Positions 18,531-23,435 of a stretch of DNA of 64,000 nt are shown here, in pieces (the stretch's first letter is position 1; the number at the start of each line of letters is the position of its first letter). Made by a program: the position numbers and the translations under genes. The notes beneath the pieces were generated by a model. That model had not been told where the DNA came from, ran no database searches, and saw nothing but the letters and a program-made list of their open reading frames with translations. The DNA lies in NCBI RefSeq assembly GCF_009914755.1, contig NC_060927.1; one strand, 5' to 3'. This stretch comes from the human T2T-CHM13v2.0 reference genome, Homo sapiens.

Positions 18531-18849
<319 letters not shown>

Positions 18850-19368
18850 ACAGGCATATTGTTAATACCTCATGTAAATATAAATAATTTAACTCATCAT
18901 TTTACTACATAAAATTTATTGTTTAAAGTTATTGAATTATTAATACACTGCATGTATTATATAAGGTAGATATTTTCATCAACTACATTGGAAACTTTAA
19001 CTGTAATATTTTCTGAACTTTTATAAAACATGAGGGTTTGTTTTTACATTATTTATACTGTGAATTCAACATTAGCAGATTGTTGAGAATACAATTAAAA
19101 ACTCATAGTATTATTGAACTCATTGTATATATTTAAATAAGAATAAAATATTTTTTACTCCAAAAATGTTTACTCTTCCATGGTTGTTTAGTTCAAGATG
19201 GACCAGTGATCACTCACTTCAATTTTGAACAATCCTTTTAACTTTCTATAGCAAAGGCTGTTAAATGAAATAATATCTATAATTACGATTTTCCTATATT
19301 TTTTAAATTTAGAACTTTATATTTCATTTAATCAACCATCTTTAATCTTTCATAATTTTTTTTTTTTT

Positions 19369-19583
19369 CGGAGACAGGAGTTTTATTATTCAAATCAGTT
19401 TTGCCCAAGCATTCCAGGATCAGAGATTTTAAGGATAATTTGGCGGGTGGAGGAAAGCCAGTGAGTCAAGAGTGCTGATTGGTTGGCAGGAGATGAAACC
19501 ATAGGGAACTGAAGCTGTCCTCTTGCACTGAGTCAGTCAGTTCCAGGGTGAGCCACAAGATCACATGAGCCAGCTTATCAATC
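19369..19583 (-). mobile_element. LTR8-like (ERV1) fragment, apparently carried here as an L1 3' transduction
   Basis: ggagacaggagttttattatt...gaagctgtcctcttgcactgagtcag resembles LTR8; poly(T) on both sides; truncated just after its AATAAA on the minus strand. Confidence 0.8.
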
Positions 19584-19618
19584 TTTTTTTTTTTTTTTAA
19601 GATGTGTGGTATTATTTC

Positions 19619-20554
19619 TTTTTTTTTATTTTTATTTTTTATTATACTTTATGTTTTAGGGTACATGCGCACATTGTGCAGGTTAGTTACATATGTATAC
19701 ATGTGCCATGCTGGTGCGCTGCACCCACTAACTCATCATCTAGCATTAGGTGTATCTCCCAATGCTATCCCTCCCCCATCCCCCCACCCCACCACAGTCC
19801 CCAGAGTGTGATATTCCCCTTCCTGTGTCCATGTGATCTCATTGTTCAATTCCCACCTATGAGTGAGAATATGCAGTGTTTGGTTTTTTGTTCTTGCGAT
19901 ACTTTACTGAGAATGATGATTTCCAATTTCATCCATGTCCCTACAAAGGACATGAACTCATCATTTTTTATGGCTGCATAGTATTCCATGGTGTATATGT
20001 GCCACATTTTCTTAATCCAGTCTATCATTGTTGGACATTTGGGTTGGTTCCAAGTCTTTGCTATTGTGAATAGTGCCACAATAAACATACATGTGCATGT
20101 GTCTTTATAGCAGCATGATTTATAATCCTTTGGGTATATACCCAGTAATGGGATGGCTGGGTCAAATGGTATTTCTAGTTCAAGATCCCTGAGGAATCAC
20201 CACACTGACTTCCACACTGGTTGAACTAGTTTATAGTCCCACCAACAGTGTAAAAGTGTTCCTATTTCTCCACATCCTCTCCAGCACCTGTTGTTTCCTG
20301 ACTTTTTAATGATTGCCATTCTAACTGGTGTGAGATGGTACCTCATTGTGGTTTTGATTTGCATTTCTCTGATGGCCAGTGATGATAAGCATTTTTTCAT
20401 GTGTTTTTTGGCTGCATAAATGTCTTCTTTTGAGAAGTGTCTGTTCATGTCCTTCGCCCACTTTTTGATGGGGTTGTTTGTTTTTTTCTTGTAAATTTGT
20501 TTGAGTTCATTGTAGATTCTGGATATTAGCCCTTTGTCAGATGAGTAGGTTGCG
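19619..20554 (-). mobile_element. L1PA2-like 3' fragment (about 0.93 kb)
   Basis: Near-consensus ORF2 C-terminus ([20 protein letters not shown]...) and young 3'UTR (cacattgtgcaggttagttac); GAG rather than the Ta ACA diagnostic. Confidence 0.93.
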
Positions 20555-20662
20555 CATTCTCTAGAGAAGAACGATCACCAATAGCAAATGGCAGTTGGAA
20601 TAACGCAACACCAAACGCTGCTTTCACGCTCATGAGAGAACACAAATATCTCCTCCTCGTGG
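20553..20662 (-). pseudogene. U3 snoRNA (SNORD3)-like 3'-domain retrocopy fused to L1
   Basis: Minus strand ccacgaggaggaga...tgagcgtgaa...caactgcc...attggtgatcgttcttctct aligns by eye to U3 from about nt 76 (CCACGAGGAAGAGA...TGAGCGTGAAG...CAACTGCC...ATTGATGATCGTTCTTCTCT). Confidence 0.88.
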
Positions 20663-23435
20663 CATAATTTTCAAAAACCACAATTAAGTGGGCCTCCAGA
20701 AGACAATTAACAGTATCAGTTCCCAAGTTCTGATTTACACTGATTCATTACTGACAATATGCCTTTCTCTCATCTTACATCTTTCAAACTTTATACATAA
20801 AACTGGGTGTTGGCTTCCTGGATTTAACCTGGGCTCAATGTCATCACCATTCATAACCTTTCTCTTATTCTACCACTTTCAGATAATTTAGGTTTACTGA
20901 AGTCAGTAGCGGGTCTCCATCTGTTAGTCCTTCCTTCATGAATAGCGATCCGGCAGCCATCTAAAACAACTAGCAAGGTAAATGGAAACTTTGCTCAAAT
21001 GCATTTAAACAATTAAGACAAGAAAAATGAGAGAAATCCTCCATAATACATTTAGAAAGAGCACAATGCCGTTTTCAAAGTTTAGATGTCACTCATGTCT
21101 CTAAATTATTATCATGTGTAATTATTGAAATAATGAAAGATTTTACAAGTTTGCACTTAAGGGTCCCATGAAGCACATAAACTCCACTGTGTTAATTCCA
21201 TACTATAGACATCAAAGATGGAGTAATTCAAACTGAGTTTACAGAAATAACATAAATTTTAATCCAGTCACAGAATAAAGATATCATTATGAAACATTTC
21301 ATGAGGCTATCATTTCAAAAAGCCAAACTGGGCCACATGAATAAATAAATTCATAAATAAATACAACAAAAAATGGATATGAGATATTAATCTTCCACAG
21401 ATCTATAAATATACATCTGTCTATGAATTCATATTAATATTTATTTTGCCATAGGTCAAGAAAGCTTGAGAATGCAAGGGTGAGATGAAGGCAGAAAATA
21501 TGGTTAAGGAAGTGAGAAAAGTAAGATCTGACAGCTTAAGATTAGTAAATTCTCATATGGGATATTAGAAGCAAAGAACAACCCTAAAAGTTTGCAGGAT
21601 AATTTATTGTAATAGAATAATATGTTCTAAATTGTTTTACAAATTGTATCTTTATATAAAATGTAAATTTTATGTTTTTGTATTTTTTTATGTTTTAAAG
21701 CTTTACAATAGTATTACACAATAAAATGACAATAGAAATTATTCCATTGTATTAGAAAGTTAAAGTGAAAGCTTATTAAACCTTAAACTTCATAGAAAAG
21801 ATAGTAAAATATTCTAATCGGTTGCATTTTGAAGGATAGCTCATTTTAAAAAATATATATGAAATAATATAAATTAATTAGATTTAAGAAACATAGATCA
21901 TTGTTTTTTTCCAAAATTGTTTTACTAACTGATGTCAAAAAAGTGTCTTAAAATTAGTGCTCCTATCTCCCGTTTACTATTCTTCCCATATCAAACCCTT
22001 ACTTATTTTAGATATCAATTACCAGTTTAAAAGTAAACATGTAATAGTTGTAACTCTCCATAATTATGTTTTCTTCCATTAACTTTTAAATTTATCTTCC
22101 ATTGTTTTTCTTCTGTTATTCTGGGTCTAGTGCCTTACCATACAAAAGATACTGATTATAACTTAGTTGATATTTGAGGTTTGAAAGAGTGGTTGTGTTT
22201 TGAGTCCTTCAAATGTGTTTGAAAATTAAATCAACAACAACAATAAACATGTTTCTTTGATTGTAAGAGTACTTTTTGTTTGAGTAGGGAAAAAAAGCTT
22301 AGTAATATATCAAGTTAAATAATCTAAAACAATTATTACATTTAACACATGGAAGAGAAATATTGTTTTAAAAATATAGCATATACGGTTTGCCAATTGT
22401 ACTCAAAGCTCTTTTGTGGGTGACAGGCAGAGTCAACACCTTATAAAATGTAATTCACATTTGTGGACAATATTGACACTGACCAATAACCAATTTCCTC
22501 TCCTTGAGCATGACAGACACGATAGTTTGTGCTCATTTCCAGTTAGGCACAGGTATAGGACTAGTTCTGGGCAATGAAATGTGAGTAGAAGTAATGTTTG
22601 TTTTTTACAGTTGAGATAGTGACATTCTCTGCTCATGTGACATTCCCTGTTCACTCTCTCTTTCTCTCTCAGTCCAGCAATGATTGTAAAAGTTCTGAGG
22701 TTGTTACTGCATCAAAATTTAGTCTATATTGACTGTAATACTGTTAAACATAATTTCAAACATACATCATGATGATTCTTTACAACCCTGTATAGGAAGG
22801 CCAAGGGTAGTAGTCAAAGCCTGGCAGGAATCTTGTTTACCTAAAGATAAAAGCAGATGGTATAAGTGACATCTGCCAACAGACATAGGTGGAGGATACA
22901 GAAAAATTCACATAGTCCATCAGTTATATACATGATTTGAGTTACCCTCAGCACCTGTCTTTTCAATAAGAATCAGTTTAGCTAATACATGATCTCAAGG
23001 AGAAGAATGCCAGAGTCAAAGAATCAGGAGAGCAAAACAATAGTTTTCTAAATGGCCTGAATCATTTGTAAATTATCTACAATATTCAAATCCTGTAAGA
23101 CTAGAAGTTATATCATATTCCACTTACTCTGTGAATGAAAGTCCAAGGTTTAGAGGAGAGGAGAGAAGAACTAAGACCACTGTATGTTAAAACTCAACCA
23201 TTAATATTTCTTTTCATTTAATTAACTCACTTTCTGGGAGAACTTGATGTTTGGTTTGACTACTCAGTTTTTATTTCATGAGCACTACATCCTCTTATTT
23301 TTTAGGGCCTTCCTTTTATGTATCATAAGTTTCTGCAGTTTACCATCTGAACACTCTATAATTTTAACTTCCAGACGATTATTCTCCTCACATTATGCTA
23401 TGCAAAATTGATCCTTATCTGACATTCTTTCAACC

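What the first reader, a model, noticed from the sequence alone, without database searches (positions are those of the whole stretch)
20553..20662. Captured U3 is a divergent, CpG-retaining variant limited to the 3' domain, with its hairpin skipped
Seen: the piece is only about three-quarters identical by eye to canonical U3 (box C TGATGA reads tggtga), yet it is fused to a near-consensus L1 and keeps about six CpGs, so decay in place does not explain the divergence. It starts at about U3 nt 76, the start of the 3' domain. The about 21 nt between TTCTCT and AGAGAA is missing, leaving the palindrome ttctctagagaa (20557-20568). It joins L1 through a cg microhomology just before box D. Known: self-primed U3 pseudogenes usually copy the 5' about 70 nt instead. 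Inference: the donor was an expressed non-canonical U3 paralogue or a processed 3'-domain RNA, and RT jumped the stem-loop.
Basis: partly seen in the sequence, partly recalled or inferred. Interest (0 to 1): 0.75.

Follow-up and report, generated by a model that had tools for sequence, protein, structure and literature searches.

The report
U3-variant/L1 chimeric retrocopy, donor lineage found
This is a dead retrocopy in which the L1 reverse transcriptase joined half of a U3 small nucleolar RNA to an L1 tail; the half came from a divergent U3 gene lineage that survives on chromosome 17 and already lacked the "skipped" hairpin.

Summary
On the minus strand, 20662-20553 is U3 nt 76 to about 206 (Rfam 43.7 bits). 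It is 76% identical to the canonical genes, box C reads TGGTGA, 21 nt of a hairpin are missing, and it keeps six CpGs. It joins a young L1PA2 3' end through a CG overlap.

A full-length U3 paralogue at T2T chr17:59,499,493-59,499,688 shares 17 derived substitutions, the box C change and the same 21-nt gap. It has a PSE-like box, a perfect octamer and a CpG-rich promoter. The donor lineage therefore already lacked the loop, so RT skipping is refuted.

No copy more than 95% identical exists. The chr17 gene differs at 15 of 110 sites, and 14 of those changes are its own. Either it has mutated about 7-10 times faster than the retrocopy, or a sister donor was lost.

The U3+L1 pair is already listed in Law et al. 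2026, Table S2. It is the only one of 22 U3/L1 chimeras there that carries the 3' domain.

New here:
- The insert runs on to 19356.
- It includes a 216-nt polyadenylated copy of a chr20 LTR transcript.
- A 9-bp duplication, AAAATTATG, flanks the whole composite.

It is a neutral fossil of moderate interest.

The parts
20663..20671 (-). 5' copy of the target-site duplication AAAATTATG. It is preceded by TTTTTG and abuts U3 nt 76.
   Evidence: sequence; a chr8 paralogue runs straight from the 5' flank into the 3' flank, acting as an empty-site proxy.
20553..20662 (-). U3 snoRNA 3'-domain fragment (nt 76 to about 206 in canonical numbering) of the variant lineage. Box B is intact, box C reads TGGTGA, a 21-nt hairpin is absent, and box D and the 5' domain are missing.
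   Evidence: RepeatMasker U3:76-175 in the table read.
20553..20554 (-). CG shared by the end of the U3 piece and the start of the L1 piece (junction microhomology).
   Evidence: 26 of 29 L1 copies read ..TTTTC or ..TTTTT followed by GCAACC at this place.
19619..20554 (-). 5'-truncated L1PA2 3' end (about 914 nt) with an A-rich patterned tail (19640-19619).
   Evidence: 97-98% to 39 copies; tip length 1.5%, 11 of 918 private sites; L1PA2, hg38 chr3:80627044-80627969.
19599..19618 (-). 20 nt of L1-ORF2-like sequence between the L1 tail and the next A run. Most simply a short 3' transduction from a source L1 nested in an older L1. Not proven.
   Evidence: it matches L1 ORF2 contexts; no source element found, and 0 of 29 closest L1 copies carry it.
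19584..19598 (-). A15 run, read as the poly(A) tail of the L1 RNA.
19369..19584 (-). 216-nt 5'-truncated copy of the 3' end of a transcript from an LTR-like repeat at chr20:15,669,209-15,669,424. It ends after an AATAAA, where the chr20 sequence continues.
   Evidence: 99% identity; other copies at most 85%; 216 nt, 2 mismatches.
19356..19368 (-). A13 run, the poly(A) tail of the LTR-transcript copy. Its last 4 A are shared with the duplication.
   Evidence: absent from chr20.
19351..19359 (-). 3' copy of the target-site duplication AAAATTATG.

Best explanation
Window 19356-20662 (minus strand) is one L1-mediated retro-insertion of hominid age. It sits at a TTTT/CA-type nick site and is flanked by the duplication AAAATTATG.

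Read 3' to 5', the order in which the cDNA was made:
1. Priming on the poly(A) tail of a transcript ending in an LTR on chr20 (216 nt copied).
2. A switch to the poly(A) tail of an L1PA2 RNA that carried about 20 nt of read-through flank (about 914 nt copied).
3. A switch, at a CG overlap, to an internal site 11-12 nt from the 3' end of a U3 snoRNA.
4. Copying of that U3 RNA up to nt 76, the first base of the 3'-domain closing stem, followed by joining to the target.

The U3 template was not canonical U3. It came from a divergent paralogue lineage whose only other copy in this genome is a full-length Pol II snRNA-type gene at chr17:59.5 Mb. That lineage had already lost the 21-nt hairpin and had already mutated box C.

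The retrocopy has no function of its own. It is a dated snapshot of that RNA.

**Shown:** the anatomy, the duplication, the shared derived states, the promoter elements, and the ages of the parts.

**Inferred:**
- Template switching rather than RNA ligation.
- One event rather than two.
- The chr17 gene being the actual donor and having since mutated about 7-10 times faster than the retrocopy. I give this last step about 0.55.
For: **U3 identity and limits.**

**Variant lineage.**
- The chr17 copy is full length: Rfam 78.3 bits, model 1-219.
- It shares 17 derived substitutions and the 21-nt gap with the window piece.
- Only these two copies were found, with all 17 and all 19 candidates scored.

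**Promoter of the chr17 copy.**
- CTCACCATCAG at -63 to -53 (TCACC core at -61..-57), against canonical CTCGCCATCAG one nt further upstream (TCGCC at -62..-58).
- Octamer ATTTGCAT at -225..-218, against canonical ATGCTAAT at -226..-219.
- GGGGCGGGG at -254..-246.
- CpG observed/expected is 1.0-1.2 from -425 to +175, against 0-0.5 in most flanking windows. A further patch of 0.76-0.84 lies at about -1025 to -725.

**Young age of all parts.**
- L1: tip length 1.5%, 11 of 918 private sites.
- U3 piece: 2 of 110 private changes, both at CpG.
- LTR piece: 2 of 216 differences from its chr20 source.

**Borders.** AAAATTATG lies on both sides. A chr8 paralogue joins the two flanks directly.

**Literature.**
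- Law et al. 2026 (PMC13174262), Table S2, sheet U3, lists this locus as an L1PA2 + U3:76-175 chimera. It was found both by proximity and by multi-species alignment.
- Doucet et al. 2015 state that U3 chimeras are 3'-truncated and arise by internal switching (passage).
- A 2026 preprint reports 11-16-fold higher rare-variant density in human Pol II snRNA genes (passages).
Against: - No donor more than 95% identical is present. 15 of 110 sites differ from the chr17 gene, while the co-inserted LTR piece differs from its source at only 2 of 216. The chr17 gene may therefore not be the donor.
- The spectrum of the 14 changes private to chr17 is mixed transitions. It is not the non-CpG C>T bias that the preprint describes, and U3 genes were not in that study.
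- The LTR piece could be a second, later insertion at the TT/AAAA edge of the first insert's poly(A) tail. Its duplication would then be made of A only and invisible. Doucet et al. 2015 raise exactly this ambiguity.
- Four of the nine bases of the duplication are A next to a poly(A) run.
- The origin of the 20-mer is unproven.
- Neither variant RNA folds better than shuffled sequence (z 0.11 and -0.86, against -2.15 for canonical), so the donor RNA may have been unstable.
Confidence: 0.8

Rival explanations
1. One reading: the donor RNA had the hairpin, and the reverse transcriptase jumped across the stem-loop, leaving TTCTCTAGAGAA.
For: The deletion removes a predicted hairpin of canonical U3. 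One canonical-cluster copy (L005) has its own 6-nt deletion in the same hairpin, so the region tolerates deletions.
Against: The genomic chr17:59.5 Mb paralogue has its own promoter and shares no L1 with this locus. It lacks exactly the same 21 columns.
Confidence: 0.02
2. The donor was a sister gene of the chr17 paralogue that has since been lost or is absent from CHM13. The chr17 copy is only a cousin.
For: - 15 of 110 differences from chr17, against 2 of 216 for the co-inserted LTR piece and its source.
- No copy above 87% identity elsewhere.
- The canonical U3 genes sit in a multi-copy cluster, so gene turnover is plausible.
Against: - The window lineage has only 2 private changes, both CpG transitions of the kind expected after insertion.
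- A sister gene would therefore have changed at no site between the duplication and the retrocopy, while the chr17 copy gained 14 (binomial p = 0.004).
- At the 0.17%/Myr rate used by Law et al., 12.7% would need about 75 Myr. Either way the chr17 copy must have evolved much faster, or the sister must have been strongly conserved and then lost.
Confidence: 0.3
3. Two separate insertions. First a U3/L1PA2 chimera with the duplication AAAATTATG. Later a retrocopy of the chr20 LTR transcript landed at the start of its poly(A) tail.
For: - CATCTT followed by an A run gives a near-perfect L1 endonuclease site on the other strand (consensus recalled, not tested).
- A duplication made only of A would be invisible.
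- Doucet et al. 2015 name this alternative for tripartite chimeras.
Against: - No inner duplication is visible, and all parts are equally young.
- Retrocopies that are neither Alu nor L1 are rare, so a chance hit on one given 15-nt tail is far less likely than a second template switch. This is my own rough estimate, not a computation.
Confidence: 0.2
4. An old canonical U3 pseudogene fragment decayed in place, and a young L1 later landed beside it by chance.
For: 76% identity to canonical U3.
Against: - The differences are shared with the chr17 paralogue (17 sites plus the gap).
- Two CpGs occur where canonical U3 has none.
- Only 2 private changes.
- Direct abutment with the L1.
- Law et al. 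score the two parts as contemporaneous in the multi-species alignment.
Confidence: 0.01

Closest known systems
U3 snoRNA/LINE-1 chimeric insertions (Buzdin et al. 2003, seen only as cited by others; Law et al. 2026, Cell Genomics, PMC13174262, Table S2 read)
   Same: - Sense-oriented U3 segment fused directly to a 5'-truncated L1 3' end.
- The U3 segment is truncated.
- This very locus is row 3 of the U3 sheet.
   Different: - All 21 other rows carry the 5' domain: they start at nt 1-8, and 16 end at nt 68-76. This one carries nt 76 onward.
- Its U3 comes from a divergent paralogue. A chr19 chimera and two 5'-domain copies I checked are of canonical type.
- The table gives no duplication for it and does not mention the LTR piece.
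Tripartite chimeric retroelements made by double template switching (Gogvadze et al. 2007, PMC2104539, passages read)
   Same: Three RNA-derived parts in one orientation, each 3' part ending in an A tract, flanked by one short direct repeat.
   Different: - That paper says the two human cases then known lacked identifiable repeats. The mouse cases are B2-U6-L1, with L1 as the 3'-most part.
- Here the 3'-most part, the first template, is a non-L1 LTR transcript, and L1 lies in the middle.
- Two successive insertions are not excluded.
Self-primed U3 pseudogenes (Bernstein et al. 1983; recalled, and cited in Weber 2006, PMC1687206, passage read)
   Same: They are truncated at about the same hinge position (nt ~65-72). 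Several such copies were seen, and two were read.
   Different: Those hold the 5' ~65-70 nt and have no L1. This one holds the complementary 3' part fused to L1.
Pol II snRNA-type genes with elevated germline mutation (bioRxiv 10.64898/2026.10.12.758683, passages read)
   Same: - The chr17 paralogue has the same promoter layout: an octamer near -220 and a PSE near -55.
- It carries 14 private changes against 2 in its retrocopy.
   Different: - U3 genes were not in that study.
- The spectrum here is not clearly the one reported.
- Expression of the chr17 gene is untested.

Membership tests
U3 snoRNA (Rfam RF00012), window piece | Covariance-model score above the gathering cut-off | tested here: met
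   43.7 bits against 34, but for model positions 81-214 only. The last ~17 nt of the hit are L1.
U3 snoRNA (Rfam RF00012), window piece | 5' domain (boxes GAC, A', A and hinges) that pairs with pre-rRNA | tested here: not met
   The piece starts at nt 76. Immediately 5' of it lies the target-site duplication.
U3 snoRNA (Rfam RF00012), window piece | Intact box C (TGATGA in the canonical genes) and box D | tested here: not met
   Box C reads TGGTGA. The true box D is absent; the CTGA at the end of the Rfam hit belongs to L1.
snRNA/L1 chimeric retrocopy | RNA segment fused in sense to a 5'-truncated L1 3' end with a poly(A) tail | tested here: met
snRNA/L1 chimeric retrocopy | One target-site duplication around the whole composite | tested here: met
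   AAAATTATG at 20671-20663 and 19359-19351. The chr8 paralogue joins the flanks. Four of the nine bases are A next to a poly(A) run.
snRNA/L1 chimeric retrocopy | All parts of the same age (a single event) | tested here: inconclusive
   - Private divergence is 1.2-1.5% for L1 and 1.8% for U3. The LTR piece differs 0.9% pairwise from its source.
- Law et al. flag U3+L1 as contemporaneous.
- The LTR piece cannot be placed in the same event without other primate genomes.
Pol II snRNA-type gene (chr17:59.5 Mb paralogue) | Proximal element near -55 and an octamer-containing distal element near -220 | tested here: met
   - 11 of 12 bases match the canonical U3 proximal box, offset by 1 nt.
- ATTTGCAT at -225..-218.
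- A GC box at -254..-246.
This rests on similarity only; factor binding was not tested.
Pol II snRNA-type gene (chr17:59.5 Mb paralogue) | 3' box downstream, and actual transcription | not testable with these tools
   The downstream sequence is a T run followed by CAGATG. I recognise no clear 3' box, judged against a recalled consensus. No expression data are available here; the retrocopy itself shows that an RNA of this lineage existed.
Self-primed U3 pseudogene | 5' ~70 nt of U3, no L1 and no poly(A) | tested here: not met
   It holds nt 76 onward and is fused to L1.

The most novel reading that the evidence does not exclude
The chr17:59.5 Mb U3 paralogue is a germline-transcribed Pol II snRNA-type gene that no longer evolves under full constraint, and it is the donor of the window piece. 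The L1PA2 chimera on chr3 then freezes its RNA sequence of about 7-9 Myr ago.

- The 14-against-2 split of substitutions, with the co-inserted LTR copy (2 of 216) as an internal clock, would be a direct long-term measure of roughly 7-10-fold transcription-linked hypermutation. It would extend that phenomenon from spliceosomal snRNA genes to U3-type genes.
- The piece would also be the reciprocal 3' product of the hinge cleavage that Law et al. propose for the 5' U3 fragments in chimeras.
Probability: 0.4. Interest if true: 0.55.

Novelty: new member of a known kind. Interest (0 to 1): 0.38.

Why it matters
The object itself is ordinary: a neutral retro-insertion of a known class, and the U3+L1 pair is already in a published table. 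Three details could interest specialists.

1. **A dated fossil of a variant U3 gene.** The piece shows that a U3 paralogue with a mutated box C and a deleted hairpin made RNA in the germline or early embryo. Comparison with the living gene shows a strongly asymmetric substitution count. That can be tested at once against ape genomes and human variant densities.

2. **The complementary U3 fragment.** It is the only catalogued U3/L1 chimera carrying the 3' domain. Its 5' end falls exactly where the others end. This bears on whether U3 is cleaved at the hinge before capture.

3. **A candidate human tripartite chimera.** The composite has a recognisable duplication, and its first template was not L1.

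Tried and rejected
- **Rfam search of the whole genome.** It scored only 50 of 29,704 candidates and missed the chr17 variant. The DNA searches found it.
- **First look for a duplication.** It assumed that the insert ended at the first or second A run. The only result was AAATTATGCCAC against AAATAATACCAC (10 of 12; 308 of 2000 shuffles score as well), which I rejected. The true 3' border was found later.
- **Source L1 followed by the 20-mer.**
  - The 24-mer has 56 genomic matches, all in L1 contexts in the copies I read.
  - The 29-mer that includes the A run has 5 matches: the window itself, two Alu insertions at the same L1 ORF2 site, and two older-L1 contexts.
  - 0 of the 29 closest L1 copies carry the 20-mer.
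  - So no source was found.
- **L1 pieces in the outer flanks.** None found.
- **U3/L1 sense chimeras among 30 full-length U3 loci.** None found. The L1 hits listed are repeats in the flanks of my L1 loci, plus one antisense L1.
- **Promoter homology by BLAST.** It found only the U3 body. A direct alignment was needed.
- **Folding.** It gave no support for a stable variant 3' domain.
- **Earlier findings of this scan.** Not open.
- **Papers not held.** Garcia-Perez 2007 and Buzdin 2003. What I say about them comes from citing papers or from recall.
- **Searches for a described human chr17q U3 variant.** Nothing relevant appeared in the listings. They cover only the held library, so this is weak evidence that it is not in print.
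- **Supplements not seen.** I did not read the supplementary figures of Law et al. (S3C/D). The bioRxiv supplements are closed. Either may bear on the U3 truncation pattern and on whether U3 genes are hypermutable.

Full report
**What is at the coordinates.**
- The U3 similarity lies on the minus strand. Rfam's U3 model matches 20537-20658 at 43.7 bits (cut-off 34), model positions 81-214.
- The last ~17 nt of the hit are L1 sequence whose CATCTGA imitates box D.
- Alignment with the canonical genes, which I took from the window's own genome, places the true U3 part at 20662-20553, that is U3 nt 76 to about 206.
  - 74-76% identity to the five canonical genes.
  - TGGTGA in place of box C.
  - Six CpGs.
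  - 21 missing columns, leaving the palindrome at 20568-20557.
  - A CG shared with the L1 part. 26 of the 29 closest L1 copies read ..TTTTC or ..TTTTT followed by GCAACC there.

**The L1 is young.**
- The adjoining 918 nt are 97-98% identical to 39 other genomic copies (40 of 5,706 candidates scored).
- In a star decomposition of pairwise distances among the 30 copies I could fetch, the window copy's own branch is 1.5%. It has 11 private sites in 918.
- RepeatMasker calls it L1PA2 (table read).
- With the 0.17%/Myr rate used by Law et al., that is about 7-9 Myr.
- Decay in place therefore cannot explain a 24% difference from canonical U3.

**The donor lineage.**
- A DNA search of the whole assembly with the piece scored all 17 candidates. 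It found one relative well above the canonical genes: chr17:59,499,505-59,499,613 at 87%.
- That locus is a full-length U3 (Rfam 78.3 bits, model 1-219).
- A search with it scored all 19 candidates and found no third member.
- I polarised the alignment with three canonical genes and eight old retropseudogenes. The window piece and the chr17 copy share 17 derived substitutions, a 1-nt gap and the same 21-nt gap. At five more sites they keep a state that the canonical genes have since changed.
- The hairpin was therefore already missing in the lineage, and RT skipping is refuted.
- The chr17 copy is not a retrocopy:
  - BLAST finds nothing but the U3 body in common with the window.
  - Its upstream region aligns with the canonical U3 proximal box at 11 of 12 bases, offset by 1 nt.
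  - It has a perfect octamer at -225..-218, where the canonical genes have ATGCTAAT at -226..-219, and a GC box at -254..-246.
  - CpG observed/expected is 1.0-1.2 from -425 to +175, against 0-0.5 in most flanking windows. A second, weaker patch (0.76-0.84) lies further upstream, near an Alu fragment.
  - Apart from Alu fragments, no other RNA family is found in its 3.2 kb.

**Is the chr17 gene the donor?**
- The two copies differ at 15 of 110 sites.
- Fourteen changes are private to chr17. Two are private to the window, and both are CpG transitions. One site changed in both lineages (binomial p = 0.004).
- The window copy is thus almost pristine, as its L1 age predicts. The living gene has changed at 12.7% of sites.
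- Either the donor was a sister gene that is now gone, or the chr17 gene has evolved about 7-10 times faster than the retrocopy.
- A 2026 preprint reports 11-16-fold higher rare-variant density in human Pol II snRNA genes, and 5-8-fold in other primates (passages only). U3 genes were not included there, and the spectrum here is mixed.
- I favour the fast-evolving donor, at about 0.55. A sister gene would have had to stay unchanged while its twin gained 14 changes.
- The 5' domain of the chr17 gene differs from canonical at about 12 of 75 sites (my count by eye), against about 36 of 110 in the 3' domain. That hints at past constraint on the 5' domain.

**The insert is larger than the finding.**
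- After the L1's patterned A-rich tail come 20 nt that match L1 ORF2 contexts, then A15.
- Next come 216 nt that are 99.07% identical to chr20:15,669,209-15,669,424.
- That stretch belongs to an LTR-like repeat. The scored copies other than chr20 are 81-85% identical (40 of 1,140 candidates scored).
- In chr20 the repeat continues on both sides. In the window it is cut at its 5' end. It stops after an AATAAA and is followed by A13. It is therefore a retrocopy of a polyadenylated transcript.
- Immediately after it comes TTATG. AAAATTATG thus lies at 19359-19351 and again at 20671-20663, directly before U3 nt 76.
- An old paralogue on chr8 runs without a break from the 5' flank into the 3' flank. 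That confirms that everything from 20662 down to about 19356 is inserted at one site.
- The simplest reading is one target-primed reverse transcription with two template switches: LTR RNA, then L1 RNA, then U3 RNA.
- The 20-mer would then be a short read-through of the source L1. Two independent Alu insertions start at the same base of L1 ORF2, so that base is a proven nick site. No source element was found, however.
- A later second insertion into the first poly(A) tail cannot be excluded. Doucet et al. 2015 raise the same caveat.

**What is known.**
- Law et al. 2026 (PMC13174262; passages and Table S2 read) list 22 U3/L1 chimeras. This locus is among them, as hg38 chr3:80,627,044-80,627,969 L1PA2 plus U3:76-175.
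- All 21 others start at U3 nt 1-8, and 16 of them end at nt 68-76. This is the only one with the 3' domain.
- The authors propose a specific cleavage that yields U3 fragments. The piece here would be the reciprocal fragment. In the Rfam structure, nt 76 is also the first base of the closing stem of the C'/D core.
- A chr19 chimera and two 5'-domain pseudogenes that I read are of canonical type, so use of the variant is special to this locus.
- Gogvadze et al. 2007 (passages) describe tripartite chimeras. They note that the two human cases then known lacked identifiable repeats.
- I found no description of the chr17q variant gene in two full-text searches (listings only).

**Verdict.**
- On the interpretation: the non-canonical donor is supported, RT skipping is refuted, and a processed 3'-domain RNA remains possible.
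- It is a neutral fossil of a known class, and the U3+L1 pair is already catalogued.
- The added value is the donor lineage with its promoter, the asymmetric divergence, and the full three-part anatomy with its duplication.

Noticed in passing
window 19369-19584 (-), and L095 (chr20:15,668,700-15,669,800): A 216-nt retrocopy of the 3' end of an LTR-terminated transcript from chr20, with only 2 mismatches to its source. It lies inside the same composite insert. I did not determine the repeat family.
   Followed up: partly
window 19599-19618 (-): A 20-nt L1-ORF2-like stretch between the L1 tail and an A15 run. It is either a short 3' transduction or an extra template. No source was found.
   Followed up: partly
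L088 (chr10:127,746,150-127,746,480) and L089 (chrX:44,840,950-44,841,270): Two independent Alu insertions sit at exactly the same base of L1 ORF2, just before GAAATAAT. This suggests a recurrent endonuclease nick site inside L1 itself.
   Followed up: no
L007-L030 (full-length U3 retropseudogenes): - Many carry a short 3' trailer (TCCCATT-like), then poly(A) and a duplication.
- The present canonical genes are followed by TTTTCCTT instead.
- These copies seem to derive from 3'-extended precursors of an older U3 gene with a different 3' flank.
   Followed up: no
L005 (chr17:19,138,015-19,138,225): One copy in the canonical U3 cluster has its own 6-nt deletion in the same hairpin that the variant lineage lost. 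It scores 181.5 bits against 199.2 for the others.
   Followed up: no
window 20537-20553 and the RefSeq pseudogene LOC124906335 (20546-20658): Both the Rfam hit and the RefSeq cmsearch pseudogene extend into L1 sequence (..CATCTGA taken as box D), and both stop 4 nt short of the true 5' end at 20662.
   Followed up: yes
window 19332-22840 (-): - The whole composite insert lies, in sense, inside an alternative exon of the predicted lncRNA LOC105377177 that ends at 19332.
- That is shortly after the inserted AATAAA (19387-19382), the A13 run and an ATTAAA (19346-19341).
- The insert may supply that isoform's 3' end, or the end may be an internal-priming artefact.
   Followed up: no
window 18561-18850: Hits to 7SL, mir-1268 and mir-3135, all below their gathering scores, are an Alu element.
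   Followed up: no
L032/L048 (chr17:59.5 Mb): By my recalled and untested conversion of coordinates, the variant U3 gene would lie near TEX14/RAD51C on 17q. I could not check the annotation.
   Followed up: no
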